DNA from: a virus
Lineage: Duplodnaviria; Caudoviricetes
Direction: 5' to 3' (one strand)
Virus record (IMG/VR): IMGVR_UViG_3300030330_006022
Location: 50,351-114,350 of that record
DNA: 64,000 nucleotides
Made by a program: the position numbers and the translations under genes. This document shows positions 25,849-45,100 of the stretch, piece after piece; position 1 is the stretch's first letter; the number at the start of each line of letters is the position of its first letter. The notes beneath the pieces are model-generated. The model was given only the letters and a program-made list of their open reading frames with translations. It made no database searches and was not told the DNA's origin.

Positions 25849-27296
25849 TGACTATAAAAAGATATTTTGCTACGGCAGATAATACAATTTCTAACGCTTT
25901 TGATCAATCTCTATTAACTACGAATAGAGCAACTGGTTCAAATATGGGAGAAGCAGACATACTTGAAGTGTTTCAAATATACGCCCAGTCTTCCTCCTCT
26001 TCTGGTCTTTCTAGTGAACTCTCTAGAGTATTAGTTCAATTTGACACCTCTGCAATTAGTACTGACAGAAGTAGTGGTGCTATTCCTGCTTCTGGTTCTG
26101 TATCTTTTTTTCTTAAACTTTACAATGCTCGTCACGCTTCAACGCTACCAGAAAACTATTCTATGACTATTTCTGCTGTTTCACAATCATGGCAAGAAGG
26201 TAATGGCTTAGACATGGTAAACTATACTGATAAAACATATGATTTAACTGGGTCTAATTGGGTTCGTAGAGGCTCAATGGGTGAATGGAATGTTACTGGT
26301 GGTACATATCATGCTTCCCCAACATACACAGCTACATTTAATGAAGGTTACGAAGACTTAGAAGTTGACGTTACCACATTAGTTGAGCAGTGGGTTAATA
26401 GTGAAGGTAATGTTTTAGGTTCAAAAGACAACTATGGATTTGGAATCAGATTGTCAGATTCTTTTGAATCAGCCCTTAAGTCGTTTTATACGAAGAAATT
26501 TTTTGCTCGCGGGTCAGAGTTTTACTACAAAAGACCTGTTCTTGAAGCTAGATGGGATGGCTCTGTGAAAGATGATAGAAGCTATTTTTTTGCTTCTTCT
26601 TCACTAGCACCCGCTGCTGATAACTTAAATACGTTATATCTATATAATAGTATTAGAGGTGTTTTAAGAAACATTCCTGCCGTTGGGACTAGTGATATTG
26701 AAGTTTCGCTTTACGACTCAGCTGGAGGATCACAAATAGGATCTACTTTCACTGGTTCTCATGTTTCTACTGGTATATATAAATGTCAAGTCTTTGCTGA
26801 CACTGCTGAAACTTCAATTGTAGATGTGTGGCATTCTGGTGGTGTTGAGTATCACACAGGATCAATTACAGTTAATCCTTTTTCTACAAACATATACAAC
26901 CCATCAGATCGTTATATACTTAATATTTCAAATTTAAAAGAATATTATGGACCTAATGAGACTGCAAGGTTTAAACTTTATGTAAGACCGAGAAATTGGT
27001 CACCAAATATATATACTGTCGCCAAATCAGCACCTCAAACTACGACAATATCAAGTGCTTCGTATGAAATATGTAGAGCATATGATAATTATCCCGTTAT
27101 TCCATTTGGAACTGGCTCTACCAATCACACAATGTTATCTTATAACGTATCAGGTAACTATTTTGATTTAGATATGTCAATATTTGAAACCGATCAAATG
27201 TATACAATTAAGTTTGCTTTTTATGATGATGGTGTAGGGTCTTGGAATGAACAGTCATATAAATTTAATTTTAAAGTGAGAAGCGATGTCTATTAA
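25848..27296 (+). CDS. Virion protein with a DNRLRE/CBM96-like domain
   Basis: ADNTI, SRVLVQFD, LKLY, SWQEG, DVTTLVEQW, NYGF and RPVLE pattern. Confidence 0.7.
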   Translation: MTIKRYFATADNTISNAFDQSLLTTNRATGSNMGEADILEVFQIYAQSSSSSGLSSELSRVLVQFDTSAISTDRSSGAIPASGSVSFFLKLYNARHASTLPENYSMTISAVSQSWQEGNGLDMVNYTDKTYDLTGSNWVRRGSMGEWNVTGGTYHASPTYTATFNEGYEDLEVDVTTLVEQWVNSEGNVLGSKDNYGFGIRLSDSFESALKSFYTKKFFARGSEFYYKRPVLEARWDGSVKDDRSYFFASSSLAPAADNLNTLYLYNSIRGVLRNIPAVGTSDIEVSLYDSAGGSQIGSTFTGSHVSTGIYKCQVFADTAETSIVDVWHSGGVEYHTGSITVNPFSTNIYNPSDRYILNISNLKEYYGPNETARFKLYVRPRNWSPNIYTVAKSAPQTTTISSASYEICRAYDNYPVIPFGTGSTNHTMLSYNVSGNYFDLDMSIFETDQMYTIKFAFYDDGVGSWNEQSYKFNFKVRSDVY

Positions 27297-30200
27297 AGAT
27301 TTATTCAATAAAAAAATTGTTACACAAAACACGATAACAGAATTAACAAATAGTGTAGAATCAATAGAGCTTGTTAAAGAAGTGGAAAAAAGAAACAGGA
27401 CTTTTTTTCCAAATCTAGATTTTGCCGACCCTGCTTCGTTTGTTCATTTCGGCTCAGCAAAAGAATACTACACTTCTGCAATAAAAAGAATATATTCATC
27501 TTTTCCTTATGATGGATCTGAAACAGAAAAATTAAAGTTTAAAAATAATTCCACTTATCTTGATCAATGGATGTTAGAAAATAAATACCCTAGATCCACT
27601 GGGTATGCTTTGTTTTCTGCTAACGGATGGGGAACTGGTACAACTATTAATGATGAAGACGGAGTAGCACAATATGGCCTTCCTGATTCCATAGAATACA
27701 TTTATTCAGCTGGAGGAACTCATTCTGCTTCTATAGAACAACACACAGAATCTGCTAATGTAATTACTGAAGGTTTAGCAAAAGCTTTTGAAAAAGCAGT
27801 TATATATGATACCAATAAAAACAGAACAACCAGTTTTAGAATGAAAATGGATGATGGTATTAGTATACAGTTTTGGTTAAAAAAGGAAGCCTTTGATATA
27901 TCTAAAACTAAAAAGGAAGTAATTTTAGATTTATGGAATGGTAACGCTTCTGATTCTGCTGACTATGGTAGACTTACTTTGGAAATATCTGGAGCTGCTG
28001 CTAATGAATCCTCAATTTATTTAACTTTGTATTCTGGTTCATCTGGTATAACAAGACAAGCCATATGCACCACAGATTATGATTCTGGTTCTTTGGCAAA
28101 TGGTGCTTGGACTCATCACTCTGTTACAGCTAGAGCAGCAAGTCAAAAACTTTTTGTAAAATATTATAAAGATGGACTAATCAATAGTTCTTCTGTTTTT
28201 GCAACTAGTTTGACTTTGGGAGAAATACCTGGTAGAATTAATGGATACATTGGTAGTCTACAGACATCTGCTCATGGTGACGCGTATCGTGACTCTGGGA
28301 ACATGGTAGGTGCTGGTAAACTTTCAGCCTCCATGGATGATTTTAGGTTTTGGAAAAAAGCACTAACAAGTGAATATATCTATAACACTTGGTATTGGCC
28401 CATTGGTGGAGGTGTAAACACAGACGACTATAGAACTGATTTGGGGATCTATTATAAATTCAATGAAGGAATAATGAACAACCCTTCATATGACTCAATA
28501 GTATTAGATTACTCTGGTAGAATAGCCAATGGTATATGGTATGGCTATGATAGCTATTCAAGATCTACAGGATCTGCGTTTACAGAGACAGAACCTGGTG
28601 ATCCAATTATAAGATCAGGTCATCCTTTGATTTCTAGTTTAATAACAGAAATGGAAGCAAGTGGTTCTTTATATGATGAAACAAACACTTCTAACATATA
28701 CGATTCCATTCCCGCTTGGTTAAGAGAAGAAGATGAAGAAAATAATAATATAAAATACTTGTACCAAATACTCTCTTCATATTTAGACACACTATATACT
28801 CAAATTTCTGAAATACCAAAGTTAAAAGATAAAGACTATTTTTCAGGATCTTCTGAGCCGTATTTCTTTATGGAAAGATTATTGAAAGATCAAGGTCTAA
28901 TAACTCCCAATGCATTTGTAGAAGGAGATGTCCTAGAATATTTTTGGGATAGAAATAACACAGGTGACAGATTTGAAAAAAATATAGAAAACACAAAAAG
29001 AAAAATCTATAATAACATTTACAACAATTTAGAATACATATACAAAACAAAAGGAACAGAAAAATCATTTAGAAATCTTTTGCGCTGTTATGGTATTGAT
29101 GACGAGTTGGTAAAACTAAATGTTTACACTGATAATGGTAAGCATTATATAAAAGATAGATATAAAGACACCTCAGTAAAGACAAAGGTGTTAAATTTAA
29201 ATAAAAAAAGCAGAACAGCAGGTAGAATTATACAAACTTCTTCGAGTGCTAATACGCTTACTTTTATATCTGGCTCTGGTGAGGAAATAAAACAAGAAAA
29301 ATTTTCTGCTTTTTCGTTAGAAGGCGGAGTTATATTTCCACAGAAAAAAGATTTTGGAGAAACAGGATACTATGAAGTAACCAGTCTATCCTCTTCTTTG
29401 TTTGGCTTTCACCAAGCTAATCCAGACGACCCTTCAGATTATACTTGGCACAGTAATGATGTAGCAAATTTACAAGTATATGCTGTAAAGCCAAGTATTT
29501 TTTCTACTTCAGCTAAATTTGTTGTTACTAATTATGATGCTAGTATTCGTTTTGAAACTGATTTTTATGAAGATGTCTACGATGCACAGAGATGGAACTT
29601 TCAATTATCTATTAAACCAAATGGATACCCAAATGCTGGAGCATATTCACAAGATGAAGAGCCGCAATACACTGCTAGGTTATATGGTATAACCCATCAA
29701 TTTGGGGACGTTAAACATCAATTTGAGATCACTTCTCCTGTTAATTTTACAATAGGTTCAGCTATTTTGTCAAATGCTAAAAGGGTTTACCTTGGTTGCC
29801 ACGCAACAAACTTTACTGGGTCTTCACACATAGAAACAGATGTAGTGTTTGATTCTCTGAGAGTTTGGATGGATGAGTTAAATAATGAGTCTATAAAAAT
29901 TCATAACTTGGATGCTTCTAACTATGGTCATGACAAAGTCTACAACAATACTACAATATTTAATTATGGAATATCAAGTTCCATTGAGATTCCTGGCTAT
30001 GATTCTCTAATTTTACACTGGAATTTTGATCAAAACTCTTCAGCAGATTCTTCAGGAGAGTTTGTAGTTAAGGATTTTTCAAGTGGCTCCGTGGACACGT
30101 TTGCGACAGCAAAAATAGTTATACAAGACGCAGGGGGAATATCACATGGTGACACATTTGGACTTGTTGATAGCGCAGGAACAGTAATTGAATATTTAGT

Positions 30201-33200
30201 AAATGGTGGCTTAGCTTTTGAATCTGGTGGTGGCAGTGGCGCTGTTGTTCCTGTAGGTTTTCTAGGTGTTGGTGGTGGTATTGCTGGTAAAGTAAAAGCA
30301 GCTAAAGCAATAGAACATGCAATTAACAATACAACAACTACAAACTATACTGCTGTTTCAAATGGTGTAGATACAGTAACAATAACTCAAGGTACAAAAG
30401 GGCCCATAGGAAACAGGACGAATCTAGATTCAATTGGCTTTACAACTGTGTCTAATTTTACTGGTGGTTTTAGTACAGACAAGTATGGGTGGGCATCTAA
30501 AATTTTAGAGAGTCAAAATGAAGGTCGCGCTTTAGGTTTTCCTGCTAATGACACAAATCCAGTAAAAACTGAAATGATATACTCTAGGAAAAAAGAGCTA
30601 CCAGAAATTTCTTTTACCAACGACAGAATTACTATTATGGGTAATGAAGAAGAATATTTCTTAGAGGATGAGGATACAACTGATAACGTATTTGCTTTAG
30701 AAAAAAGCATGTATCAATCGATATCAGAAGAGATGTTAAGAACATTTTCTACTGTTAAAGAATATTCTAATTTATTTACTAAACCTCTAGACTTTTATAA
30801 ATTAGAATATAAGAAGTTAAGATTAGCTAGAGGTTTGTTTTTTGATAGAGTAGAAGAAAACCCTAATTTAGACAAATACACAGACTACTTTAAATGGATA
30901 GACTCTTCCTTATCATTTTTTATAGAACAATTAAAACCAGCATCTGTGACGTTTTTAAATAGTGTTGCCAATGTTGTAGAAAGTCATATATTTGAGAGAC
31001 CAAAATACGACAGAAAGTTTCCGCTTTTGGACACTAAAACAGCAACCCAAGGTGTAGTAAAGTCTGTTGGGGAGTTGACCTACAATTGGAAGTTTGGTCA
31101 CTCACCTGAATACAAAACAGGAGCAACTCCAAACACTCATTGTCTTTGGAAAAGAGAACGGGAAGAAAGAACAGGTGATTTAGCTTCTGTTAGAAATACT
31201 ATTAGAGATGTGTTAACAACTGAAAATAAAACTTATATTGCTTTTCTGGGGGATAATGATAAAAATGCTTATCTAAAACCAAACTATGTAACTAGAAGGT
31301 TTTCAAAACCCTACAAACTAGACGTTGATTTAGGTGTAAACTTACATGGTGGTACAAACTATAACCAACAAAAAAATAGAAATTTCATTTACAATGTTAC
31401 TAGACCACATGGAGCTAAAACAAATTTAGGAATACCAGTTAACGTAGCTGTTGTTGGTGTTGGACCAGGACATGACATAGTTAATTCTAACTTGTGTGAT
31501 GATATTGAAGATCCATCAGAAGTTAAAGATTATAACTTTGTTATAACAGTTGGAAAAGACTCCTCTGGTGACGGACAGGCACCAGCTACTGCATCTTTAG
31601 AATATGCTTATAAAGTTAAAGGACACTATGCAGCTCCGTTCAATTTGATATCAGGATCTGAGACAGCTGGTGCCAATAAATTGGTTAATGACAGCTATTC
31701 AGCTTCAGTTATATTAACAAACCTACATTCTGATACGACATATTTTGAAAACGATATCCCAATGCAAGGTCCTTTTACACAAACTTGGGTTGGAGGACAT
31801 CAGTCTAGACATGTTGACATAAACCAATACGACCCAGCATTAAGAACTTCAGGTGGAGCTGACCCTACATTAAACAATCTAGATGATCAATATTCAAGAC
31901 CAGAAGCATTTAGATTACTATTTGGTGACCACCCTGATGAAGCTGTAAATGATGGAGCTATAGGTATCGTAGGACCAGATTATGGCGGTCCTTACCCAGA
32001 TACAACCAGACAATGGGCAATTTATTATCGCGACTTTAGAGGTAAAAGACCATATAACATTCAAAATGTTAGTGGCTCTAGAACTATGTTGGGTAATTAT
32101 AACAAAAGATATGAATATTTTAACTCTGTTGGAAGATTAGAAAACAATAACAGATTGAAGAAAGCAGCTTCTGACACTGAATATAATTTAAGTGGTACAT
32201 TTTTACCACCAGAAATACAAACAGCTTTGCCTCAGACTACTCATCCATTGACTATGTTTGGTATATCACCTTCATCAAATGGAAATGTTTTTGGTAATGT
32301 GATATCAGAATCTGCTTCTCCAGATGGAGAAAATAATAGAATAAACGCAATCAATCAAATAATAAGACCAATTGTTTTAGCATCTGGTTCAATGCTTGTT
32401 ACCGGTTCTACACTTTACAAAGCACCATATTCTGCTTCACTAAATATACAACCAATACCTTATCAAGGATTACATCAAGCTTATCACTTTCAAGTCTCTG
32501 GAGCAACTGACTATTACGAAATATATTCAGGTTCTTTTGACGTACAAACAGTGCCTCATGCTGGTATCCATCAAACTTACTATTTTAAAGTAACGGGATC
32601 AACCCACAATGAAATAATTGATAACATTTATACAGGTTCTTTTGATATTGATGCGGCCCCAAGAGCCCCAATTCATGATTTTTTGTATTTTAGAATCTCA
32701 GGATCTACTGATGCAACTGATAGTAGTTTATTAAAAATTACAGCAAGTTCAACTCAAAAACATTTTGAAATAGATAATAACGGCTTCACAGGTACCACTG
32801 ATGCCATAAGAGTTCCAACAAAGACAGTTTCTTCAACAAATGTAGCAAGTATTAGAAGCGCTACAGATGCTGACAATAAGCTTTTTGTGGACACTACATA
32901 TAGCGGAATAGGTACTAGTGATGTTTCTGTATCTTTCTGGTTTAATCCTTATGACATTAATGGATCTCTTGGAACTGACGACGATGCACAAGAAACTTAT
33001 ATAAGATTTGCTGATAATTTTCAAGATGCTTTAATTATACACTGGAATAAATACAGGTTTACAGTTGAGGTTGAAAACACATCAGGCACAGATAGATTCA
33101 AAAAATTTACTACGAATTATAACAACAGCACCGGTTGGAAACACGCAACAGTTACAGTAGGTATGAATAATTTAAGTACAGTAAGCCCAAAATTATACAT

Positions 33201-36200
33201 TAACGGAGTAGAACACACAGGCGTGTTTGGTTCATTCAACGCACCAGGAGGAAGTTCAAGAACTATTGACATGTTGATTGTAGGATTTAAAAATGGAAAC
33301 TCTTCTAATGGACCCGCAATGCATGATCTTGTTATTTGGGATAAAGTGCTGAATGCAGACGAAGCTTGGGAAGCATATAAAAATGGTTTAAAAAATCAAG
33401 ATTTCTCAACCCACAGTGCAAATTCTAATATAGTTAATCATTATTTATTTGGTGAAGAAGCAACTCTATCTCATCTTTCTTCTGGTGACACCGTTGATTC
33501 TCCTAGAAATTTGTCTTCAAATTATGGTAGTGAACCTGGGAATGTTCTTATAGACAGCACCAGTAATAGCATGAAAATACTAGATCACTCAATGAATCAA
33601 TATAACGCTAACTTAACAAACACTCAATTTTGGGATAGTTTAAAAACTTCACTAAACACAGAGTTTTCAGGATATACAGCAAATTATATTTCAGGAGGAA
33701 TGGCACAATTCTTTTTAAGAAAAGATGCCCCAGGGCAGAACAGTATAAATGTTGTCACAATCGGTAATGCTTTTTCATCTCCTGCTGGTCGACCTGGAAA
33801 TGCTGCTATAGCTAGTGATTTAGAAGATGGAGATACTATCTCTATTTCTGGTAGTACTTTTACTGTGAGACACACAACATCAGGTTCAGCACCAACAGAC
33901 TTTGTTGTTGGTGAATTGTATAGAAATGCTATACTGTTTCCAGAGTCAACAGAAAATCGCATTCATTTAAAACATGAAGACTACACCAACCCTTCATCAG
34001 ACAATATATCTTTTTCATTTTGGATTAGATCAAATAATGCAACTGGTGGAGGAAACAAATTTATATTTTTGTCAGAAGATGCCTCTTCAGACAATGCTAT
34101 TTGGATATATATTTATGAAGACGAATTACGAGTCTACACTTTAAATGGTAGTGGTACTAAAAACCATAAGTACAATGGAGCTATAGTAGAAGGAATATGG
34201 GATCACTTTACCATTTTTATTAACACAACAGATATGACGGATGTTAATGTATATAAAAATGGAACATTATTGTCTACTACTGGTGAATCAGGATCAGGTA
34301 CAGGAGCAACAAGAGATGTAAGGAAGATCTACATAGGAGATGCTGATGGTAACTCAAGTAATAGTGAACTTCAAGGCTCTCTGCAAGACTTTGTAATCTG
34401 GAACACTGGTTTAAATTTGTATGATGCCAAAACTCTTTACAATTCTGGGTCTTGGTTTGATCCTAGTTCACATATTTCTGCTTCTTATATACATGATTGG
34501 TGGCCTCTTGGTAACGGACCAGGAATGCCTTCATCAGGATCTAACATAAACTCTGTTACTACTTTTGAACCCGAGGTTGGCTCTCACCCACTTGTAAAAG
34601 GAACAGACTGTGACGATGAAGTTTTTATAACAGATGGGATAATTGAAAGAGCAAAAGACGATCCAGTTTTTTATACTCACGTTGCTCACCATATTGATGC
34701 TAACACAAACTATTCTGCTTCAAGTGTTGACAATGGGTCTACTGGTAGAATTAATATGCACCAAACCTCCTCTGTTGTTATTACAGACACACTAGCAAAT
34801 TCAAACGATACATTTTCCAATGAAGCAGCTTTTGGTGTTGATGTTCGTATAAATTATATATCTGGTGCCGTTCATGGACAGCAAGTTCAAATTGAAGATG
34901 AAGTTTTCTTTATCTCAACAGCTAGTTCTCCAACAACTTGGGCATCTAGTTCTGGTGGAATCCAAGTAAACTCCACAGGATCAGAATTTTGGAATCATTT
35001 ATCTGGTGCTATCCAACAATACCTTCCCGAATATACTGCTTCTTATTACATATATGACAATCAAGCACGTTTCTTTGTTAGAAATGGAGAATCTGGATCA
35101 CAAGCAAATGATACTTTATCTATTGGTGGCGGAAGCTGGTCAGACCATGGTACAGTTATTGGTTCTGATATGTCCGCTAGTTCTAATCTCACGGACGGAG
35201 ACACTTTAAGTCTTGATGGAGACACTTTTACTTTACGATATACAAATTCTGGCTCAGCCGCAGGAGACTTTGTCGTTGGATCAAGTTATAGAAAAGCTTT
35301 AAATTGGAAAGCAGCCACAGGCGCTTCAGCAAAAAAGATGAGTCTAAAAAATGTAAGTTTTGATGGAGCTAGTTTAGAAGATGTAATATCATTTTCTTTT
35401 TGGGTTAAGTTTGATCAGGATGACACTCCTGGTGACGTACAATACATACTTAATGGGTATGACTCTGCGGGCAATTTAGCAATTGGTATTTACAGATCTG
35501 GTAAAGATATACTTATAGAACTTTATAATACTAGCAGTGCAGTGCGAAACTATTTTACGACTAGTGATGCCTTACTATCTGGTAAATGGTACTCAGTAAG
35601 CATAAAAGTTGACACCTCTGATATTGACACTACATGTGTTGTTTATATAAATGGCCAATTGCAGTCAATCACTGGGGCAGGTTCAGCACCTGGTGCAGCT
35701 CGAACCTTGGGAAGAATTTATATTGGAGATTCTGCTGGTGATTTTCACTCAAACGAACTACAAGGCTCTTTACAAGACTTTGTAATTTGGAATACAGGAT
35801 TGGGATCACAAGATGCTGAAATTCTTTACAATTCAGGTTCTTGGTTAGACATACACTCTCACCCTTCTGCATCTTATATATGGGATTGGTGGAGACTAGG
35901 AAATGAAGATCCTAGTAAGCCTTCGGGTTCTGCTTGGACTTCGGTGCCTATAGTGCCGACAATTGGAAGACACGATTTGCAGTTTGACGACGATGCTGCT
36001 TCAAAGATTTTTGTAACAGACGGAATCATTGAGAACAAAAAAACCAACTCTGAATTAAAAACTCATATAGCTAGTACAATAGCAGCACAAACAGTGTTCT
36101 CAGCTTCCGTTAGTTCTATACTTTTAGAGGTAACTGCGGCGACAGATATACATTCAACAGGTTCTTTCTCAAAGGATGGAACAACGTTTGGATCATTATC

Positions 36201-39183
36201 AGGAATTGAGTTTGTAAAATACGGAAATTATTACTCTGGTTCGGTTCCTAATAATACACTTGTTTTTGAAGGAAAGACTTTTCACGTATCAGCTTCAACA
36301 ACACCAACAGATCCTTATACAATTGTTGGAAACAATGTTTACGTTTATTCTCATCAAGATCTTGACACAACTTGGTGGGGTAATTTATCAGGGGCAATAG
36401 AAGCCGCTCTTCCTGCTTTTACAGCCTCCTATTTTCAAAGTGGTACTATGGGTCACTTTTTTGTTAGAAACGCCACCACAGGCTCTACAGGCAACACAAC
36501 CATAACAGAATCAGGCGACACCTTTATGAATGAATATGTTGTAGTAGGAACTGATACTTCTGGTAGTTCAACATTAGCAGATCAAGATACTTTAAGAATA
36601 ATGGATAATAACCCTCGGGCAGATTTATCCGTACCACATACCATAACAGTTGGTCACACAACTTCAGGTAGTGTCGGAACAAACACAGGTGCAAATTATA
36701 GAAAATCTTTATGCTGGCCACCAGCAGCGGGATCTAGTAAACAAGTTCATATTAAAAATACGCAATATGAAAATCCAACATCTAATAATATAGCTATATC
36801 TTTTTGGTTAAAAAGAGATCATACCTTTTTCCAACACGCTGATTCTAGAGTAATATTTGAATTTCATAGCGATACAGCAGCAGATTTTGTGCTTAGAGGG
36901 TACACGCTTCCTGAAAGCTTAGTAGTTCTTGCAGCAGGAAAAACCGGAGCTGGAATTGGGGATGCGTACCGATTTACCTTAACGGAAACAGCAGGCATTT
37001 GGAATCATTATGTATTAAATATAGATACAACCGATGTTGAAACAGATTCAGTAACTTTACACATGAACGGGCAAATCCAAAGCCCGGAGTATACAAATTA
37101 TTCAACCTCTGGAGAATTATATGATCTTGATGAGATATATATTGGTGATGCTAAACAAGATAATGACTCAAGTGAGTTGCAAGGAACATTACAAGATTTT
37201 GTCGTTTGGAATACACCTCTAACAGCTCAAGATGCAATAACGCTTTATAACTCGGGATCGTGGTTAGATATTCACTCTCATGTCTCAGCTTCTCACATAT
37301 GGGATTGGTGGATGCTTGGAGAAGAAACATCAAAAAACCCTGATGATGCTTTAGCAGGCTCTGATTTTCCAATATTGCCAACAATTGGAAGACACAGTTT
37401 GTTTGCTGGTGATGATGCTATAGGTATAATAAATGTTTCAGGAGGTATAAAACACAACAGTAAAACAAATTCAGATTTTTGGAACTCTATATCAGCATCA
37501 ATAGAAGCAAACACAGAGTTTAAAACTCATGTAAGTTCTTCAAGTTCTAGTCTCTACACTATGACAGCATCAACTCAAATAACTGGTGCGATGATGAGAT
37601 TGGGAGAAAAGGACAGCTTACCAACCGTTGAAGCTTCTTTTACAAAAACCGGAAATACTTTCTCAATTTCTCAACAAGTTATTAGAGGAGCTGATACACT
37701 AAACCAACAAAGATATGCAAACGCAGGAGCTAATGCTGGAGATAGATTCACAATAAGTCCAAATTATGAAGAATCTGTTACCACTCAATTTATACTAGAC
37801 ATAAGCGGTGGACAAGCTGACACATCTTCTCCATTTTACACCAAAGTTGGAAATGATTATCATATATTCTCCTCAGCTTCAACAAATGATGAATTTTGGT
37901 TAAGAGTTTCTGGAGCAGTTTATGCTGCTTACCCTGCTTATAGTACAATAAGCTCTTCTACTTTGAATGTCACAGAATCACTTACAGGCCCAACAAGATT
38001 TAGTTTTACTGGTTCTCAGCCTCCAGATGTATGTTCTATACTTGATCTAGACCACATTAACAATAGAAATTTATCAACGACTGGTTCATCTTTTAATACC
38101 CCTGGTGGGATTTTAGGGGGTTTTGATCAGGTTGTTGAATGTGCCTTAATTAATGTCATTGAGAAAGAATCTGATTTCCTAACAGGGTCAACAAGAAACA
38201 AAACAGTTATAACATCACGCTTTTCTGCACCTGGTGGAGTTGAAGTACAGACATACGGTTATCTTGACGCTTATGCTAGAGAATATTCAGTTCACAATTC
38301 ATTGAACTATAGAAACTTGTCTGTTAGAGGTTCAGGAAGTGGTGAAAGCGGCTCTGTTGACGGAATGAGTATAAGAATGAACAACCAGATTGGTACTAGA
38401 GATGGACTAAGAACACTCTATCAACGTCCCATGGGACTTGCAGGAACTGATTTAGTTTACGGTTCAGCTAATTCTTCAGATTATGAATACTCTGCTTCTT
38501 TTCATAAAGTTCCTAGAAACACACTAGTAACTATACGCCCTAGTTCTTCTGTCAATGAAATAAGGGCAACCGCTTCAATAACACCTTTAGATGGAGGACA
38601 TACTACTTCCACCAGTGGCTTGACTTTTATTATCGATGATGGTGTTAATTTACCAATCACTTATACCTTTGGCGCATCTACAGCAAGAGTAAGTGAAACA
38701 GAAACATCCATTTTTTACACTATTAATAGTAGTTCTATGACTAGCGTTGCTACAGCAATAGATAAAATTGTACCTGCTATCAATCTAGCATTTAATAATA
38801 AAGATAGTATAATTCAAGCAACAGATGAAACCACAATTGTTGGTTTAACTTCTTCTGTGCCTGGAAGTTTTATTAACGGTAAAACAATCACCGGAACATA
38901 TATTGCTGATGGCATTGGATCTATGGTTGGATTTACTGGTGGAGAAATTTCTGTTGTACCTAATATTGTTGAAAGAAGCAATAATTATAACTTTAACTCT
39001 GTTTTGCCTTCATCTGATTACAATTATAGTTGGGTAACTTCTTCACTTGGAGATAATTATAGTGTAAGAAGTGGAACACAAAAAGTGTTTGGTTATTGGC
39101 CCAAAAATGGTATACATTCTTCGTCTACTGGATTTGATTCGGCAATAACCTTCCCAACAGCCTCAGAAATAAGTGGAGTTTAG
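27286..39183 (+). CDS. Giant baseplate wedge/adhesin protein (gp7/P2 gpI-like core) with multiple LamG domains and nested insertion domains (3965 aa)
   Basis: FVHFGSA and YKTKGTEKSFRNLLRCYGI (KGT wedge motif); LamG signatures such as SFW.., W.H, LY.NG and QGSLQDFVIWN. Confidence 0.8.
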   Translation: MSIKDLFNKKIVTQNTITELTNSVESIELVKEVEKRNRTFFPNLDFADPASFVHFGSAKEYYTSAIKRIYSSFPYDGSETEKLKFKNNSTYLDQWMLENKYPRSTGYALFSANGWGTGTTINDEDGVAQYGLPDSIEYIYSAGGTHSASIEQHTESANVITEGLAKAFEKAVIYDTNKNRTTSFRMKMDDGISIQFWLKKEAFDISKTKKEVILDLWNGNASDSADYGRLTLEISGAAANESSIYLTLYSGSSGITRQAICTTDYDSGSLANGAWTHHSVTARAASQKLFVKYYKDGLINSSSVFATSLTLGEIPGRINGYIGSLQTSAHGDAYRDSGNMVGAGKLSASMDDFRFWKKALTSEYIYNTWYWPIGGGVNTDDYRTDLGIYYKFNEGIMNNPSYDSIVLDYSGRIANGIWYGYDSYSRSTGSAFTETEPGDPIIRSGHPLISSLITEMEASGSLYDETNTSNIYDSIPAWLREEDEENNNIKYLYQILSSYLDTLYTQISEIPKLKDKDYFSGSSEPYFFMERLLKDQGLITPNAFVEGDVLEYFWDRNNTGDRFEKNIENTKRKIYNNIYNNLEYIYKTKGTEKSFRNLLRCYGIDDELVKLNVYTDNGKHYIKDRYKDTSVKTKVLNLNKKSRTAGRIIQTSSSANTLTFISGSGEEIKQEKFSAFSLEGGVIFPQKKDFGETGYYEVTSLSSSLFGFHQANPDDPSDYTWHSNDVANLQVYAVKPSIFSTSAKFVVTNYDASIRFETDFYEDVYDAQRWNFQLSIKPNGYPNAGAYSQDEEPQYTARLYGITHQFGDVKHQFEITSPVNFTIGSAILSNAKRVYLGCHATNFTGSSHIETDVVFDSLRVWMDELNNESIKIHNLDASNYGHDKVYNNTTIFNYGISSSIEIPGYDSLILHWNFDQNSSADSSGEFVVKDFSSGSVDTFATAKIVIQDAGGISHGDTFGLVDSAGTVIEYLVNGGLAFESGGGSGAVVPVGFLGVGGGIAGKVKAAKAIEHAINNTTTTNYTAVSNGVDTVTITQGTKGPIGNRTNLDSIGFTTVSNFTGGFSTDKYGWASKILESQNEGRALGFPANDTNPVKTEMIYSRKKELPEISFTNDRITIMGNEEEYFLEDEDTTDNVFALEKSMYQSISEEMLRTFSTVKEYSNLFTKPLDFYKLEYKKLRLARGLFFDRVEENPNLDKYTDYFKWIDSSLSFFIEQLKPASVTFLNSVANVVESHIFERPKYDRKFPLLDTKTATQGVVKSVGELTYNWKFGHSPEYKTGATPNTHCLWKREREERTGDLASVRNTIRDVLTTENKTYIAFLGDNDKNAYLKPNYVTRRFSKPYKLDVDLGVNLHGGTNYNQQKNRNFIYNVTRPHGAKTNLGIPVNVAVVGVGPGHDIVNSNLCDDIEDPSEVKDYNFVITVGKDSSGDGQAPATASLEYAYKVKGHYAAPFNLISGSETAGANKLVNDSYSASVILTNLHSDTTYFENDIPMQGPFTQTWVGGHQSRHVDINQYDPALRTSGGADPTLNNLDDQYSRPEAFRLLFGDHPDEAVNDGAIGIVGPDYGGPYPDTTRQWAIYYRDFRGKRPYNIQNVSGSRTMLGNYNKRYEYFNSVGRLENNNRLKKAASDTEYNLSGTFLPPEIQTALPQTTHPLTMFGISPSSNGNVFGNVISESASPDGENNRINAINQIIRPIVLASGSMLVTGSTLYKAPYSASLNIQPIPYQGLHQAYHFQVSGATDYYEIYSGSFDVQTVPHAGIHQTYYFKVTGSTHNEIIDNIYTGSFDIDAAPRAPIHDFLYFRISGSTDATDSSLLKITASSTQKHFEIDNNGFTGTTDAIRVPTKTVSSTNVASIRSATDADNKLFVDTTYSGIGTSDVSVSFWFNPYDINGSLGTDDDAQETYIRFADNFQDALIIHWNKYRFTVEVENTSGTDRFKKFTTNYNNSTGWKHATVTVGMNNLSTVSPKLYINGVEHTGVFGSFNAPGGSSRTIDMLIVGFKNGNSSNGPAMHDLVIWDKVLNADEAWEAYKNGLKNQDFSTHSANSNIVNHYLFGEEATLSHLSSGDTVDSPRNLSSNYGSEPGNVLIDSTSNSMKILDHSMNQYNANLTNTQFWDSLKTSLNTEFSGYTANYISGGMAQFFLRKDAPGQNSINVVTIGNAFSSPAGRPGNAAIASDLEDGDTISISGSTFTVRHTTSGSAPTDFVVGELYRNAILFPESTENRIHLKHEDYTNPSSDNISFSFWIRSNNATGGGNKFIFLSEDASSDNAIWIYIYEDELRVYTLNGSGTKNHKYNGAIVEGIWDHFTIFINTTDMTDVNVYKNGTLLSTTGESGSGTGATRDVRKIYIGDADGNSSNSELQGSLQDFVIWNTGLNLYDAKTLYNSGSWFDPSSHISASYIHDWWPLGNGPGMPSSGSNINSVTTFEPEVGSHPLVKGTDCDDEVFITDGIIERAKDDPVFYTHVAHHIDANTNYSASSVDNGSTGRINMHQTSSVVITDTLANSNDTFSNEAAFGVDVRINYISGAVHGQQVQIEDEVFFISTASSPTTWASSSGGIQVNSTGSEFWNHLSGAIQQYLPEYTASYYIYDNQARFFVRNGESGSQANDTLSIGGGSWSDHGTVIGSDMSASSNLTDGDTLSLDGDTFTLRYTNSGSAAGDFVVGSSYRKALNWKAATGASAKKMSLKNVSFDGASLEDVISFSFWVKFDQDDTPGDVQYILNGYDSAGNLAIGIYRSGKDILIELYNTSSAVRNYFTTSDALLSGKWYSVSIKVDTSDIDTTCVVYINGQLQSITGAGSAPGAARTLGRIYIGDSAGDFHSNELQGSLQDFVIWNTGLGSQDAEILYNSGSWLDIHSHPSASYIWDWWRLGNEDPSKPSGSAWTSVPIVPTIGRHDLQFDDDAASKIFVTDGIIENKKTNSELKTHIASTIAAQTVFSASVSSILLEVTAATDIHSTGSFSKDGTTFGSLSGIEFVKYGNYYSGSVPNNTLVFEGKTFHVSASTTPTDPYTIVGNNVYVYSHQDLDTTWWGNLSGAIEAALPAFTASYFQSGTMGHFFVRNATTGSTGNTTITESGDTFMNEYVVVGTDTSGSSTLADQDTLRIMDNNPRADLSVPHTITVGHTTSGSVGTNTGANYRKSLCWPPAAGSSKQVHIKNTQYENPTSNNIAISFWLKRDHTFFQHADSRVIFEFHSDTAADFVLRGYTLPESLVVLAAGKTGAGIGDAYRFTLTETAGIWNHYVLNIDTTDVETDSVTLHMNGQIQSPEYTNYSTSGELYDLDEIYIGDAKQDNDSSELQGTLQDFVVWNTPLTAQDAITLYNSGSWLDIHSHVSASHIWDWWMLGEETSKNPDDALAGSDFPILPTIGRHSLFAGDDAIGIINVSGGIKHNSKTNSDFWNSISASIEANTEFKTHVSSSSSSLYTMTASTQITGAMMRLGEKDSLPTVEASFTKTGNTFSISQQVIRGADTLNQQRYANAGANAGDRFTISPNYEESVTTQFILDISGGQADTSSPFYTKVGNDYHIFSSASTNDEFWLRVSGAVYAAYPAYSTISSSTLNVTESLTGPTRFSFTGSQPPDVCSILDLDHINNRNLSTTGSSFNTPGGILGGFDQVVECALINVIEKESDFLTGSTRNKTVITSRFSAPGGVEVQTYGYLDAYAREYSVHNSLNYRNLSVRGSGSGESGSVDGMSIRMNNQIGTRDGLRTLYQRPMGLAGTDLVYGSANSSDYEYSASFHKVPRNTLVTIRPSSSVNEIRATASITPLDGGHTTSTSGLTFIIDDGVNLPITYTFGASTARVSETETSIFYTINSSSMTSVATAIDKIVPAINLAFNNKDSIIQATDETTIVGLTSSVPGSFINGKTITGTYIADGIGSMVGFTGGEISVVPNIVERSNNYNFNSVLPSSDYNYSWVTSSLGDNYSVRSGTQKVFGYWPKNGIHSSSTGFDSAITFPTASEISGV
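32830..37455 (+). repeat. Four LamG/concanavalin A-like domain repeats; the last three are spaced about 1.4 kb apart
   Basis: ELQG(S/T)LQDFV(I/V)WNT.L...DA..LYNSGSW.D...H.SAS.I.DWW at about 34363-34503, 35755-35892 and 37174-37311 with visible DNA similarity; a more divergent copy lies near 33320. Confidence 0.85.
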
Positions 39184-39184
39184 A

Positions 39185-42100
39185 ATGAGCAATATACCTT
39201 TAGACTTTGTTGGTTTAAATACATTAGTAAAAGAAGAGATAGACCCAGATACAAATACAATAGGAAACACAAATGCAAAAGCATTAAAGTTTAATAAGAC
39301 TGATGAGATATACAATTTAGAGCTAACCCAATCAGCTGGGTATTCTTATTTGGTAAATTACGGTGCGCAGGGATATACTCAAACAGGCCCTTTGTCTTAT
39401 TCTTTTTGGATAAAAATGAACTGGGATGCGCTTTCTAGTTTGACAATACCATTTGCTTTGATCTCTTCTGGACACTGGACAAATGGTCAATTTTTTACTA
39501 TCGTACTTTACGAATCTGATGGGTCAAGCCTCACGTACAGAATTAACACAAATAATACCGGCGGTACCGATACAGTTTTTGATGGGTCAAGAATATTAAA
39601 TATTGATTTTACTGATTCTAGTTCTAATACAAGAGCTCTTATTAGTCAAGTTGTTCTTAACGCTTTTGAAGCTTTAAATTTAACTAATTGGCAATTTTCT
39701 CGGGAAGGTTTTGGAGAAAACCCCGTCTTTATAAAAGCTACGTCACCATTACAAAAAATTACTTTTAATGATGATGATATTGGTGGAGCTATATCTCCCA
39801 TAAGAACACCTTTGCTTTACAGAATTATCGGCTTTGATACTACAGGAGATAGTTTTTTTGGTATAATTAAAGATGATTACTTACTTCACACACCAGGGTT
39901 GGCAGATGGTGGAAATAATACTGAATTTATATTTAGGCACTCAGCCAGTGATGGAACAATAAAAACAGCCACTTGGGAGTTAAATACTTACCTTAGCGGT
40001 CTTGATTGGGCAGGTTGGGACGACTGGGCTCATATAGTCGTTTCTTGGGATGGAAACTTTAATAATTCTGTAATACTTTATGTAAATGGAATAAACATAG
40101 GAGCAGGATCTCAAAACAGCGTAGACAAAATAGAAAAGAAAGCCATAAGTCAGATTGCGATAGGTTTTCCAAAATCTATACCAACAGTAACCACATATCA
40201 CCCTAGTTCTTTAAATGCAGAAATTAAACATGTTGCCACTTACAACAAAACGCTAAATCAAAACGATATTGATTTAATATATTCTAACGGGTTTGTAGAA
40301 AATATTGCAAAAATATCAACACTAAAACCTTTCATAATAGATTATTGGAAATTTGGAGATGACTTATCATTAAACTTTGATGATACAATTCAAAATAATA
40401 CTGATATTGAACCATCTTATGGAATAAACACATTAAGAACTGTCAACACTTTTACCATATCAAAAGGCCTAATACCAGAAATAAGAAATAAAGAAGTTCT
40501 TTTAACTAAAGTTGTTCGAACAAGAGTGGCAAATGAGTATTTTACTATGAACCCAGATTTAGTTGATGATGATGGTAATGTTATATATGTCGACTCAACT
40601 AATCAAGTTTTAAGAACAAATGGTCAAATTGAATATGAAGATTATTTAATTGCTTTAAATATACACAGAAATGGACCTTATGGGTATTCATCTTTTAAAC
40701 AAATTAGGGCTCATGAAAACCCTGTTACAAGATATCATAAAAAAAATAATATTTTTTCTTTTTCTCCAGAAGAAGGTTTTAGAAGAACAGTTATCAAAGA
40801 TGGAAAAGTAATATCTCAACACACAGATAAACGAGGACCAGTAACAAATTTTGAAAATGAAAGCCCAGTAATAATGAACAAAAAACCCTTTGAAGCAATT
40901 GTGGATGTTTTTATAGAACAGGGTGGAGACCAATTTGAAGAAAAAGTAAAACTTAAAACATCTTATGCAAGTCAACTGGATTACTTTAACAATGAAATAA
41001 TAAATCAGCAGCTTGGGTTGGATGAACAAAGAGATCACTTTTATGAAGAAATGAAAAGTTTGTATATGGGAGTTGATCCTGAATCTTCAATAGTTACGGG
41101 TGTGGATAGCGTAAAGTTATCTCAAACTATTTTTCCAACAGATCTTTATACAAATAAATCTTTTACCAAACAAAGACCCAGCTTTAATTCTAATTTTTGG
41201 AGAAAAAATAGAAATGATAGGATTCTTTTAGATCAAGATAATGGCTTTGGGTATTCTGTTCCTTCTCAATCAATGTGGCCTTTAGATGCGGTAGCAAATT
41301 TTGAAACTCAAACCCTCATCGGCTCAGATGGAAATTTTAGAATCTTTAGCCCCTCTTTAGCAAAAGCTATAAATGACGGCGGCACAGTGACAAATGCTTC
41401 TAGATTTACATTTCCCGAGTCTCACCCTTCAACCCCAGGCAGTATATTTTTTGAAGTTGTTAACAAAGGGTCTTTGGCTGCTCGTTTTTACGGAAGACAG
41501 AGCAGTCATTATATAGGAACCAATGAAGTAGATGGACTTAACGTAAAATTAAAAATTGAACCTGCGATTGCTCATCTGTACGATGGATTTAGTAGAGTTG
41601 CTACAAATATGAGAACTGCTTTTGTTGGGTCTCCAAATAATTATGACTCTACAACAGACTTTACTCTTAACACATACACAAGAAAAGGAGCTTATATAGC
41701 TAGAAGTGCTGGTTTACACAACTCATCTAGCCCACAAGTGGCAAGAGTAAACTATATGAGAGTAAAAAACATATATTTAGATAATATTAACACAAATGAT
41801 AGTAATGCTAGATATAGAGCTAAATGGTTAGCTGATTTTAGAAACTGTACTTTATCCTACTGGAACGCAGCAGGTGCTGATTCTAGTAATAATACTGGAT
41901 TTGGTACACTTATGATAGATTTTAGTTCTAGTAAATCACCAGTAGCCCATACTGGCGATGGAGTTGTAACAGGTACTGGAACAAACCGACAAAGTGGTAA
42001 TGGTCCCGGTGCTCTATCAATATCAGGATCTGGAGATATTGATAAACTAAGAAGGCACATATTTTTTGCTACAAGTTCTGTTAATGTAAGTTCTACTTCT

Positions 42101-45100
42101 GGTGGAGGAACTACTACACACTATACCACTACAACAGGTGACAATATGCTGGTTGTCAGACTAGGAACAAAATGGACGAAAGATCCAAGTGGTGAAAATC
42201 CGGAAGATTATTACGGTAACGTTAGTCACGATCCAGCCCTTGGAATTCAATCTGGAGTGGACAACAATGGAGCTGTTGATTTTATTTTTGATGGTATTTT
42301 TAGTATAAATAACCCACTTAAACAAACTCATCACAGCACAACTGAACTGGATATTACATGTAGAAATTCTAGATATTTAACTTATATACAGTCTCACTTT
42401 CTAGTTTCTTTAAAACAAAATCTAGAATCAGATGCTGGTGAAGCAGCTTTTAGTGCTAGTTGCTATTTAGCAATAAATGGTAAATTTATTGCCCCAACAA
42501 GAATCGTAGACCCATATGGATTTTTATCTCGTACTAATTATACCGATGCTGGTGGTGTAGAGTATGCACCACAAACTTGGACCGCAAAAGATGTTGAACC
42601 AACAGATGTTATTTGGTTTCAAGGTGGAGATGGAGTAACTAAAACTTCTGGTGGTACTCCTATAGCTGAGGTTGAAAATGCTCCAACAAACTTTCAATAT
42701 TTTTCCGATATAGCATTATTCAAAGGATCTTTAGATCATTCAGAAAACAGCATGTCAGAAACATTAACAATTAGAAATGGTTCAGGAGCCAGTCAAGATA
42801 TAACTCTTACTAGAGACAGAAACTCAGCACACGGTTTTTCGTTTAACAATACAATTACAATTGTTGTAAACTTAGCTGCTGCGAACGCTGGTAGCAAGTG
42901 TTTAGTAGACTTTTCTGTAAACTCATCAGGAAATATGACAATCGCTATTACACCAAATACGGGTCTATCTCCTACATGTTCTAGAACTGCTCTTGTTGCT
43001 GCTATTAATGATGGCGAACATTCTGATTTGACCGTAACTGGTCACGATCTCGTAGACTTTACCGCGGCTGCTGGTGGTGCTTCTGATGGCACTGCTATAG
43101 AATCAATGCCAGCTACTAATTTTCCTGGAGCCACAAGGTTCAGTGGTTTTAATAATTCTTCTATCGGTTTTGTTGGTAAAATACCTTTCATAGCTGGTAC
43201 AAATGGTGCTGGAGGAGATGAGCAGCAAATTGGAGTACGATATGTTGATTACAACACTGCCATGACAAACTTTAACGATCAGGCTACTGGTACTCCTTTA
43301 GAAGGTCCATACCTTTGGTACAATTTTGAAAACAATCACAGAGGTGAGGCTTCCGTTAATCAATATGATGTTTTTGGTTTTGAAGATGTATCCGTTAATA
43401 CAGCAGTTGCAGCTTCAAGTTATGATTACCTTGCTACAATGGGATATCTACACGGTGATTTATCAGGTAAGGGATTTCTAGAAAATCAAAATATACCTGG
43501 GCTTGTTGGACCAATAACAACTACGCATCGTTTAAATAATGGATCTTTTGCTGATTTTATAGCCGCTCCTGGGGATAATCTAGCAACATACACAATAGAA
43601 CAAGGTCTCATGAGTGATTACTCACCAGCTAGTAATTTTAACTCACCAGTAGAACCATCTATTCCTCTTGGTGGATTTACAGGAGATAATTCTCGACAAG
43701 GACCAGGTGTATTACAAAACTCTTACAGTCAATTTGCTAGAGGTTTGACCACTTCTACCCCTCTCGACCTCCAATTATCAGCATCGGCTTTTTACTCTAG
43801 AAGACATACATTAACAGCTTCTACTTCTGTTGTTAATCCATTTTTTACAAACTTGTCTGGTGGCACAATTCATGGAATAACTGCGTCTCAATTATACTTG
43901 GGAACAGCTTTGTGGGAGGCTCCTCAACAAGCAGGATTTTTCAATAACGAAGGGACATTTGTATCTGCTTCAAAAGATCCTTTCTATGATACATATGGAG
44001 AGTATGCTGAAGAAATAACTAAAATAGGAAAAGGCTACTCTGTTGTGCCTGAGTTTAGAATATCAACTCAAATAGAACACTATTTATCTCAGGGACCTTT
44101 GGCAAGTAAGAATGATTTTTTAGAATTAACAGGAGGTTTATCAACACTACAGAAAAGTTCACAAAATAATTTTTATAAAATATACACAAATTCAGAATTT
44201 ATTAAACATTTTAAAGTTGTTAGAGATGATCATAAGAAAATGTTTGATCCCTACAAAATAACGCTAAGTTGTAAAGCGATTAAAAAGTTTCTTCCTTACA
44301 AAGGTTTTTATCCTGCCGAAAGAACAGTTGAAATGGCAAAACAATTTTATTCTTCTTATGGTTCTAATGTAATTACAACAGCTAGCATAGGCCTGACAGG
44401 AAATAGCTATTTTGCAAATCAAACTTATCCAGTTCAATATTTACTAAATCCTTTGTTTGGGCCCGGAGTGCTTTACAATACAATCAAGTCAGGTATAGCT
44501 TGCGATTATCCAGTAATTACTTCTTCAATGAACACTACCGGAAGTGTTGTTGGAGATTATCATATAAACGACTTTTTTGACACAAGAATACCATTTGAAG
44601 CTTTAGTTGAACCAGAAAAGTATTTAGCAAACAATACTTTATTTTCTAATGAGCCCGATCCAAACGGTAATACATTTACAGAAGTTGCATGGAATGGTCA
44701 GGGAAACAATCTGTACAAACTACAGATGAATAATTTTCTAGCTGAAGTCGGAGAATTCTTTTTAGAAAATCAAAATTATACTACAATAACTTCACTACCT
44801 CAAGGAGATCCCAACTTTGGTAACGCTGAAGCTGGTAAAGTATATTCAATGCGTTTAAAAATGTTTAGAACTATAACTGGTCAAAAATCTTCTGGAAATG
44901 GTCCAAAAGGAATTAAGTATGGATTACCTCAAGATACAGGCTCAATGAGTGAAGCTTTTACTATGTACTCTAGACCATCAGCATTTGGTCCTCCAACAAA
45001 AATGTCTGCTTCTTCGTTTACAACAAAAGCATGGAATAAGTTTAAAAAACAAAACAGCGTTAATTTTCTTTATAACACAGCATCGACATATGTTGCTGTT

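What the first reader, a model, noticed from the sequence alone, without database searches (positions are those of the whole stretch)
32380..38121. Seven-level nested ('matryoshka') domain arm displaying four LamG domains in the 3965 aa baseplate protein
Seen: an intact ~120 aa module occurs at 30103-30468 and 38566-38943, with the order AT(A)xI strand, a G(D/L)TF strand pair, an 'I..AIN' helix, further strands and an FTGG end. At 32380-32709 seven isolated first strands are stacked in tandem: ASGSMLVTGST, SASLNIQPIP, AYHFQVSGAT, SGSFDVQTVP, TYYFKVTGST, TGSFDIDAAP, FLYFRISGST. Seven module bodies lacking a first strand follow, with helices FWDSLKTSLN, FYTHVAHHID, FWNHLSGAIQ, LKTHIASTIA, WWGNLSGAIE, FWNSISASIE and FWLRVSGAVY, ending at GGILGG. 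Both series alternate between two types. Bodies 1, 3 and 5 share FF(V/L)R and would pair with the three YxFxVxG strands; bodies 2, 4 and 6 share D(G/Q)DT and would pair with the three Pro-ending strands. LamG domains interrupt bodies 1, 2, 4 and 6. Inference: each domain is inserted into the first loop of the previous one, so the chain runs out as single strands and returns completing domains in reverse order. This would give a strand-complemented stalk extended by duplicating a two-domain unit at two distant DNA sites at once. I do not know of a description of this architecture.
Basis: partly seen in the sequence, partly recalled or inferred. Interest (0 to 1): 0.9.

Follow-up and report, generated by a model that had tools for sequence, protein, structure and literature searches.

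The report
Seven-deep nested lectin arm, phage baseplate
A giant baseplate-region protein of an uncultured marine phage very probably builds a long sugar-binding side arm by plugging seven copies of one small domain into each other like Russian dolls. Relatives with 0 to 12 layers always keep one leading strand per domain, but structure prediction could not confirm how the strands pack.

Summary
The arm (residues 1699-3612) sits in a loop of a conserved core. In many relatives the two flanks are only 20-57 residues apart.

Across about 30 homologs, leading strands always equal domain bodies: 0, 1, 2, 3, 5, 6, 7, 8, 11 and 12. The outward path grows by 16 residues per body (r2 0.98 and 0.96 in two clades). 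Strand types and body types co-vary. Between the 7-level window protein and an 11-level relative, the four outermost strands and the last four bodies are conserved together, as a mirrored nest predicts.

Four ConA/LamG-like domains interrupt bodies 1, 2, 4 and 6.

Two AlphaFold2 runs on homolog nests left the outer strands disordered, so packing is inferred, not shown.

Nested insertion is already known in T4 sheath gp18, flagellin and cyanobacterial RNA polymerase Si3, where the published record is six levels. This is a deeper, same-domain variant in a new family. Unchecked earlier notes from this scan describe similar nests on other marine phage DNA.

The parts
27286..39183 (+). Giant ORF of 3965 aa. 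It lies in the baseplate gene block: a gp25-like gene at 23582-24001, a gp6-like gene at 24043-25848, a 482-aa ORF, then this ORF.
27286..32379 (+). Conserved N-terminal core, residues 1-1698. It ends in a conserved Pro-x-Thr-Thr anchor at about residue 1649, just before the arm.
   Evidence: 332 relatives in IMG/VR
30103..30468 (+). Contiguous ('intact') ~120-aa module at another site in the core. Only 2 of the homologs have it, so it is a sporadic insertion.
32380..32709 (+). Outward path: seven stacked first strands with a period of 16-19 aa, starting at residues 1699, 1716, 1732, 1748, 1764, 1783 and 1799.
32710..33813 (+). Level 7, the innermost. The body 1 hairpin directly follows strand 7, then LamG 1 (32833-33585), then the rest of body 1.
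33814..34866 (+). Body 2 (type B), interrupted by LamG 2 (33919-34635). Inferred partner: strand 6.
34867..35181 (+). Body 3 (type A, no LamG). Inferred partner: strand 5.
35182..36207 (+). Body 4 (type B), interrupted by LamG 3 (35287-36021). Inferred partner: strand 4.
36208..36567 (+). Body 5 (type A, no LamG). Inferred partner: strand 3.
36568..37683 (+). Body 6 (type B), interrupted by LamG 4 (36703-37440). Inferred partner: strand 2.
37684..38121 (+). Body 7, the outermost and of its own type. Inferred partner: strand 1. It closes the arm.
38122..39180 (+). Conserved C-terminal core. It starts with a conserved Arg-Phe-Ser-Ala-Pro-Gly-Gly region. It also holds a second contiguous module (38566-38943) that no homolog has.

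Best explanation
Residues 1699-3612 form one long excursion from a surface loop of a conserved giant baseplate-region protein. The excursion is a seven-level nest of one small alpha/beta module. The module's parts, in order, are: a first strand, a hairpin, a strand, a helix, and three or four more strands.

Each module is inserted between the first strand and the hairpin of the module below it. The chain therefore climbs as seven single strands of about 16 residues per level. It then descends by completing the modules in reverse order: strand 7 with body 1, down to strand 1 with body 7. The two ends of the arm meet again at the core.

The expected result is a rod in which every joint is crossed by two chain segments. 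ConA/LamG-like lectin domains are plugged into a loop of levels 7, 6, 4 and 2, counted from the core. The likely role is multivalent binding of host surface glycans at a distance from the baseplate.

Depth changes in evolution by gain or loss of levels on both sides together. The likeliest route is a single patch recombination whose two crossovers are each out of register by one unit. In the main clade that unit is a type A plus type B pair.

What is shown: the parts, the equal counts, the 16-residue increment, the co-variation of types, the mirrored orthology, the insertion site, and the LamG identity.

What is inferred: the physical packing of each strand into its body, the rod shape, glycan binding, the recombination route, and that the protein sits in the baseplate (from gene position only).
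For: 1. The arm is an insertion. In many relatives the anchor motif and the C-terminal core are 20-57 residues apart. In others the same site holds one contiguous module of 160-205 aa, or one module carrying a LamG domain, about 420-475 aa.

2. Strand count equals body count in every complete homolog read:
- 0/0: P0027, P0057, P0061 and many loci
- 1/1: P0020, P0026, P0038, P0051, L017 and others
- 2/2: L025
- 3/3: P0008, P0009, P0010, P0016, L006
- 5/5: P0006, P0007, L010
- 6/6: P0065
- 7/7: window protein, P0004, P0005
- 8/8: L018
- 11/11: P0003
- 12/12: P0012

3. An objective proxy agrees. The distance from the anchor to the first landmark of the innermost domain rises by 16.1 aa per body (r2 0.98, n=17) in the main clade, and by 16.5 aa per body (r2 0.96, n=9) in a second clade. 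An automatic strand scan correlates with body number at Spearman 0.97 and never exceeds it.

4. Types co-vary. Similarity among strands mirrors similarity among bodies: window r 0.71, p 0.0025; P0003 r 0.67, p 0.0001. In the two even-depth proteins tested that show signal (L018 and P0065; P0012 showed none), the mirrored pairing fits and the same-order pairing does not (0.45 against -0.59; 0.49 against -0.14), though these two mirrored fits are not significant on their own (permutation p 0.057 and 0.12).

5. Orthology is mirrored. Window strands 1-4 best match P0003 strands 1-4, while window bodies 4-7 best match P0003 bodies 8-11, with scores up to 249.

6. In P0003 the most similar pair of outward units (50% identity) corresponds to the most similar pair of return units (46%).

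7. Bodies lack only the first strand. The innermost level has it directly before the hairpin. The profile alignment of contiguous modules to bodies starts right after that strand.

8. In the AlphaFold2 model of the L025 nest, the outer body is confident (pLDDT 77-93) except for its last strand (about 36). That fits a sheet edge waiting for the missing first strand, but it is only a hint.

9. This body best resembles the protruding domains of phage tail sheath proteins and FliD D3, which are themselves insertion domains (VIA Z 5.2-5.8).
Against: No structural confirmation was obtained. AlphaFold2 on the 3-level nest of P0008 gave mean pLDDT 50, and on the 2-level nest of L025 gave 49.6. Both left the outer strands as low-confidence coil, pLDDT 24-35. 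The L025 outer body was modelled confidently without its strand.

Counts in divergent proteins (P0012, L006, L010) needed reading by eye, because the body HMM undercounts there.

Within odd-depth proteins, the mirrored and same-order pairings fit equally well.

Type A bodies carry a short, weakly strand-like stretch just before their hairpin, and its role is unexplained.

Homology of the two contiguous modules in this protein to the bodies is weak.

The assignment to the baseplate rests on gene order only. The protein matches no PHROG family, and its only Pfam matches are weak, below-threshold hits to lectin-type (ConA-like) domains inside the arm. Its N-terminal and middle core regions (the parts tested) match none of 50,697 phage records.
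Confidence: 0.8

Rival explanations
1. Beads on a string plus a separate strand domain. The seven strands fold together as their own small sheet or sandwich. The seven bodies are complete, independent tandem domains.
For: AlphaFold2 modelled the outer body of L025 with high confidence without placing the distant strand. A strand-like pattern also occurs inside bodies, about 0.4 per 100 aa.
Against: This gives no reason for strand and body numbers to be equal at ten different depths, or for 16 aa of outward path per body. It does not explain the matching of types or the mirrored orthology. AlphaFold2 did not fold the strands into a domain of their own either. The two ends of the arm must meet at one loop of the core, and a tandem string does not provide that.
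Confidence: 0.07
2. One-to-one docking without fold completion. The strands form a continuous spine or ribbon along which the bodies sit, one per strand, but each body is a closed fold on its own.
For: This would also give equal counts and a mirrored order. The L025 outer body was confidently modelled alone.
Against: At the innermost level and in one-level relatives, the same strand is contiguous with the hairpin and belongs to the module. Bodies correspond to the module minus exactly that strand. The last strand of the L025 outer body loses confidence when the first strand is not placed.
Confidence: 0.08
3. Complementation in trans. In an oligomeric baseplate arm, the strands of one chain complete the bodies of a neighbouring chain, as a domain swap, instead of those of their own chain.
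For: Baseplate and fibre proteins are commonly dimers or trimers (general knowledge). Sequence counts cannot tell cis from trans.
Against: No evidence of oligomerisation was obtained. The short linkers and the return of the chain to one loop fit a cis nest most simply.
Confidence: 0.05

Closest known systems
Si3 insertion of cyanobacterial RNA polymerase beta' (RpoC2)
   Same: It is an elongated arm inserted in one loop of a large host protein. It is built from repeats of one small domain that are not in simple tandem: several copies are assembled from distant parts of the chain (PMC10895346). A survey of 2.7 million domains describes it as a six-level recursive insertion and names it as its example of the most complex nesting (PMC13114784).
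   Different: The fold differs (sandwich-barrel hybrid motif). It is a cellular enzyme, not a virion protein. It has eight domains at up to six levels, with branching. Here there are seven levels of one module in a strictly linear nest, 11-12 in relatives, plus a LamG level. The outward path is reduced to one strand per level, and depth varies from 0 to 12 within one family.
T4 tail sheath protein gp18
   Same: It is a phage tail protein in which domain I is inserted in domain II, which is inserted in domain III, which lies between the termini forming domain IV. The N-terminal share of domain II is only residues 88-97, a single short segment (PMC3004832). The best fold matches of the body modelled here are protruding domains of phage sheath proteins (8env_A Z 5.8, 9khy_a Z 5.6).
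   Different: It has four levels of different folds, not repeats of one module. It carries no lectin domains and has a fixed depth. The fold match is weak (Z below 6).
Flagellin and flagellar cap FliD outer domains
   Same: They share the hairpin-like nested topology, in which outer domains are inserted in inner ones and the chain returns to its start (general knowledge). FliD D2-D3 chains are among the best fold matches (5h5v_A Z 5.2, 5h5w_B Z 5.1).
   Different: They have three to four levels, no repeated identical module and no sequence similarity. They serve in a filament, not a baseplate arm.
Donor-strand complementation in chaperone-usher pili
   Same: A fold that lacks one strand is completed by a strand supplied from elsewhere (general knowledge).
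   Different: There the strand comes from the next subunit, in trans, and drives polymerisation. Here it is inferred to come from the same chain, hundreds to about 1900 residues upstream.

Membership tests
Recursive (nested) domain insertion architecture, A1-B1-C-B2-A2 type | The whole array lies inside a loop of a host whose flanks are adjacent in relatives without the array. | tested here: met
   The anchor motif and the C-terminal core are 20-57 aa apart in many homologs.
Recursive (nested) domain insertion architecture, A1-B1-C-B2-A2 type | Each host domain is split into an N-piece and a C-piece, with one of each per level. | tested here: met
   Strand count equals body count at depths 0, 1, 2, 3, 5, 6, 7, 8, 11 and 12. 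The outward path grows 16 aa per body.
Recursive (nested) domain insertion architecture, A1-B1-C-B2-A2 type | N-pieces and C-pieces occur in mirrored order. | tested here: met
   The outer four strands and the last four bodies are co-orthologous between the 7-level and 11-level proteins. In two of three even-depth proteins (L018, P0065) the mirrored pairing fits better than the same-order pairing, though not significantly (p 0.057, 0.12); the third, P0012, shows no signal.
Recursive (nested) domain insertion architecture, A1-B1-C-B2-A2 type | The N-piece packs physically into the fold formed by its C-piece. | tested here: inconclusive
   AlphaFold2 left the outer strands as low-confidence coil in two homolog nests. 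No coordinates are available, and the complex predictor was closed.
Concanavalin A-like lectin / LamG (Pfam PF13385, PF02210) | Score above the Pfam gathering threshold. | tested here: met
   Segments 1, 2 and 4 score 33.9, 48.3 and 38.7 bits against 27.6. Segment 3 is their paralog, with only a weak PF02210 hit. The matching part of a homolog model resembles galectins at Z about 5.
Sheath protruding-domain / FliD D3-like fold (for the repeated module) | Clear structural superposition on a solved member. | tested here: inconclusive
   The best VIA Z values are 5.8, 5.6 and 5.2 over 86-101 residues of a homolog body. That is below the level where a shared fold is safe.
T4-type baseplate wedge module | Recognisable wedge genes next to the giant ORF. 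| tested here: met
   A gp25 domain (PF04965, 41 bits) at 23582-24001 and a gp6-like match (phrog_219, E 1e-17) at 24043-25848. The same order, followed by a large ORF, occurs in Flavobacterium phage immuto.
T4-type baseplate wedge module | The giant protein itself matches a known baseplate protein family. | tested here: inconclusive
   No PHROG, Pfam or PDB sequence match outside the LamG parts. No tblastn match in 50,697 phage records for the N-terminal and middle core regions tested.

The most novel reading that the evidence does not exclude
This family holds the deepest linear same-domain nests found so far: seven module levels plus a LamG level in the window, and 11 and 12 module levels in relatives. 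That exceeds the six levels named as the record in a 2026 survey. The family also forms a natural 'telescopic' series, in which arm length and lectin valency are tuned by paired, mirrored recombination events that add or remove a strand and its body together. If so, it is a directly testable model for how proteins grow by recursive insertion and how such a chain folds.
Probability: 0.55. Interest if true: 0.8.

Novelty: new variant of a known kind. Interest (0 to 1): 0.7.

Why it matters
Domain insertion is usually one level deep. The published extreme is six levels, in cyanobacterial RNA polymerase. Here one protein family shows every stage from no insert to twelve nested copies of one module, so the growth of a nest can be traced step by step.

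It raises a folding question. The first strand of the outermost domain is made about 1900 residues before the rest of that domain.

It also suggests how phages of uncultured marine hosts adjust the reach and valency of their sugar-binding arms. A rod whose joints are each crossed by two chain segments may interest protein designers.

Earlier unchecked notes from this scan suggest the same grammar is common in giant marine phage baseplate proteins. If so, this is a general building principle and not a curiosity.

Tried and rejected
AlphaFold2 on the complete 3-level nest of homolog P0008 (881 aa, 6-row alignment) gave mean pLDDT 50 and pTM 0.34. Only the innermost module and the LamG domains were moderately confident, and the outer strands were coil.

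AlphaFold2 on the 2-level nest of L025 (541 aa, 20 rows, enriched with paralogous bodies) gave mean pLDDT 49.6. The outer body was confident, but its distant strand was not placed. MAFFT had aligned the one-level relatives onto the outer strand plus outer body, leaving the inner domain without support. Neither run supports or refutes the packing. The window's own arm (1914 aa) exceeds the 1200-aa limit, and both jobs are now used.

Model coordinates are not exposed, so contacts could not be read.

A short strand HMM was too insensitive to count strands in divergent proteins. An ungapped profile scan undercounts by one or two, mostly at the innermost strand, and also hits one ordinary strand inside many bodies. 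The body HMM undercounts in P0012, L006 and L010, and those were counted by eye.

Within-protein similarity tests cannot separate mirrored from same-order pairing when the depth is odd.

Profile comparison of contiguous modules with bodies gave only a weak match.

Searches for a named family found nothing beyond LamG. This covered Pfam, PHROGs, PDB sequences and 50,697 phage genomes.

Literature searches on 'Russian doll', 'nested domain' and phage terms found no description of this arm.

The analysis was redone by coordinates.

Full report
**Setting.** The window is part of a 114-kb IMG/VR viral contig, judged 63% complete, with about 33% G+C. The finding lies in one open frame, 27286-39183, of 3965 aa. 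Upstream are a gp25-type wedge gene (PF04965), a gp6-like wedge gene (phrog_219, E 1e-17) and a 482-aa ORF. Downstream is a 2547-aa ORF with no family match. The same order, ending in a large ORF, is seen in Flavobacterium phage immuto. The giant protein matches no PHROG family, its only Pfam matches are weak, below-threshold hits to lectin-type (ConA-like) domains inside the arm, and its N-terminal and middle core regions (the parts tested) match none of 50,697 phage genomes. Its place in the baseplate is therefore inferred from gene position only.

**Observation.** All seven short strands, all seven helices, the closing motif and the two alternating signature motifs are at the stated coordinates.
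- Pairwise scores show two alternating types among strands (3/5/7 and 2/4/6) and among bodies (1/3/5 and 2/4/6). Strand 1 and body 7 each stand apart.
- The bodies align with each other, and an HMM built from them finds seven hits.
- The four interrupting segments are ConA/LamG-like, and three pass the PF13385 threshold.

**The arm is an insertion.** The core before the arm ends in a conserved Pro-x-Thr-Thr anchor. The core after it begins with a conserved Arg-Phe-Ser-Ala-Pro-Gly-Gly region. I gathered relatives from a word-index search, an exhaustive profile search and IMG/VR, which gave 332 relatives of which 80 loci were fetched. Across these, the distance between the two landmarks falls into classes:
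- 20-57 aa: no insert.
- 160-205 aa: one contiguous module.
- About 420-475 aa: one module carrying a LamG.
- 566 aa, then about 920-980 aa, then 1313-1450 aa.
- About 2000-2270 aa, and 3533 aa.
The one-level forms have the first strand directly before the hairpin. They align with the two contiguous modules of the window protein.

**Counts.** Reading the stacked strands and the body helices in each complete homolog gives equal numbers every time:
- 3/3: P0008, P0009, P0010, P0016, L006
- 5/5: P0006, P0007, L010
- 7/7: window protein, P0004, P0005
- 11/11: P0003
- 12/12: P0012
- 6/6: P0065
- 8/8: L018
- 2/2: L025
- 1/1 and 0/0 in many others

The body HMM reproduces the body counts automatically in the main clade and in the P0065/L018 clade. 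It undercounts in three divergent proteins, which I read by eye.

I used a measure free of my own strand calls as a check. The distance from the anchor to the first landmark of the innermost domain rises by 16.1 aa per body (r2 0.98, n=17), and by 16.5 aa per body (r2 0.96, n=9) in the second clade. An automatic strand scan gives Spearman 0.97 against body number and never exceeds it.

**Order.** Within proteins, similarity among strands matches similarity among bodies under the mirrored pairing (window r 0.71, p 0.0025; P0003 r 0.67, p 0.0001). With odd depth, the same-order pairing fits equally well because the two types alternate. In the even-depth proteins L018 and P0065 the mirrored pairing fits (0.45, 0.49) and the same-order pairing does not (-0.59, -0.14), although the mirrored fits themselves fall short of significance (p 0.057 and 0.12); the third even-depth protein, P0012, shows no signal either way.

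Between proteins the test is sharper. Window strands 1-4 match P0003 strands 1-4 (scores 66-109). Window bodies 4-7 match P0003 bodies 8-11 (scores 91-249). So the extra four levels of P0003 lie in the interior on both sides. In P0003 the most similar pair of outward units (50% identity) corresponds to the most similar pair of return units (46%).

The main clade has only odd depths, as growth by a type A plus type B pair predicts. Other clades change by single levels. A single patch recombination with both crossovers shifted by one unit would add a strand pair and a body pair at once. That route is my inference.

**Structure.** The arm is too long for one prediction, so I folded smaller nests from homologs.
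- The 3-level nest of P0008 gave a poor model (pLDDT 50). Only the innermost module, with its contiguous first strand, and the LamG domains were moderately confident.
- The 2-level nest of L025, with paralog-enriched rows, gave a confident outer body (pLDDT 77-93). Its distant strand and its own last strand stayed at low confidence.
- The strands did not form a domain of their own in either run.
- Coordinates are not exposed and the complex predictor was closed. Packing therefore remains inferred.
- The confident body best resembles protruding domains of phage sheath proteins and FliD D3 (Z 5.2-5.8). These are classic insertion domains, but the scores are too low to claim the fold.

**Known relatives of the idea.**
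- In T4 gp18, domain I is inserted in II, II in III, and III between the termini. The N-terminal share of domain II is only ten residues (PMC3004832).
- Cyanobacterial Si3 is an arm of eight repeats of one motif, four of them built from distant chain segments (PMC10895346).
- A 2026 survey calls Si3 a six-level recursive insertion, the deepest example it describes among 2.7 million domains (PMC13114784).
- The present arm works on the same principle but differs in several ways. It is strictly linear and made of one different module. It is seven levels deep, with a LamG on top, and reaches 11-12 levels in relatives. It sits in a virion protein, and its family shows every intermediate depth.
- Earlier unchecked notes of this scan describe similar nests in other marine phage proteins. 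They are not independent evidence.

**Verdict.** The nested, strand-completed reading is well supported by comparative sequence evidence (my confidence is 0.8) but is not confirmed by structure. It is a new, deeper variant of a known architectural kind.

Noticed in passing
window 30103-30468 and 38566-38943: The two contiguous modules are sporadic. Only P0006 and P0038 share the first at that site, and no homolog has the second. The module therefore seems to move between surface loops of the core.
   Followed up: partly
P0083 (homolog, 3933 aa), residues about 1329-2415: This relative has no insert at the usual site. It has seven tandem bodies after a LamG at a different site, preceded by what look like about seven stacked strands. 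This may be an independent nest, but the strand count there is uncertain.
   Followed up: partly
P0012 (homolog, 4194 aa), residues about 3380-3530: Body 10 of the 12-level relative is interrupted by a segment with His- and Met-containing motifs that recall a cupredoxin-like domain, not a LamG. This was not tested.
   Followed up: no
window 34867-34910 and 36208-36255: Type A bodies 3 and 5 begin with a short, weakly strand-like stretch before their hairpin. The second clade (P0065, L018) lacks it. Its role is unexplained: it may be a neck strand pairing with the outward linker, or the remainder of the first loop.
   Followed up: partly
L047, L052, L081 (IMG/VR loci): Some relatives carry only a LamG domain, without any module, at or near the arm site. 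L081 has LamG domains inserted inside the core itself.
   Followed up: no
window 39173-46816: The next ORF (2547 aa) matches no Pfam or PHROG family. Another first-reader note says it holds copies of a similar plug-in module. I did not examine this.
   Followed up: no
window 27286-27296: The giant ORF overlaps the end of the upstream 482-aa ORF by 11 bases. The database copy of the protein (P0002) is 29 residues shorter, so the true start codon is uncertain.
   Followed up: no
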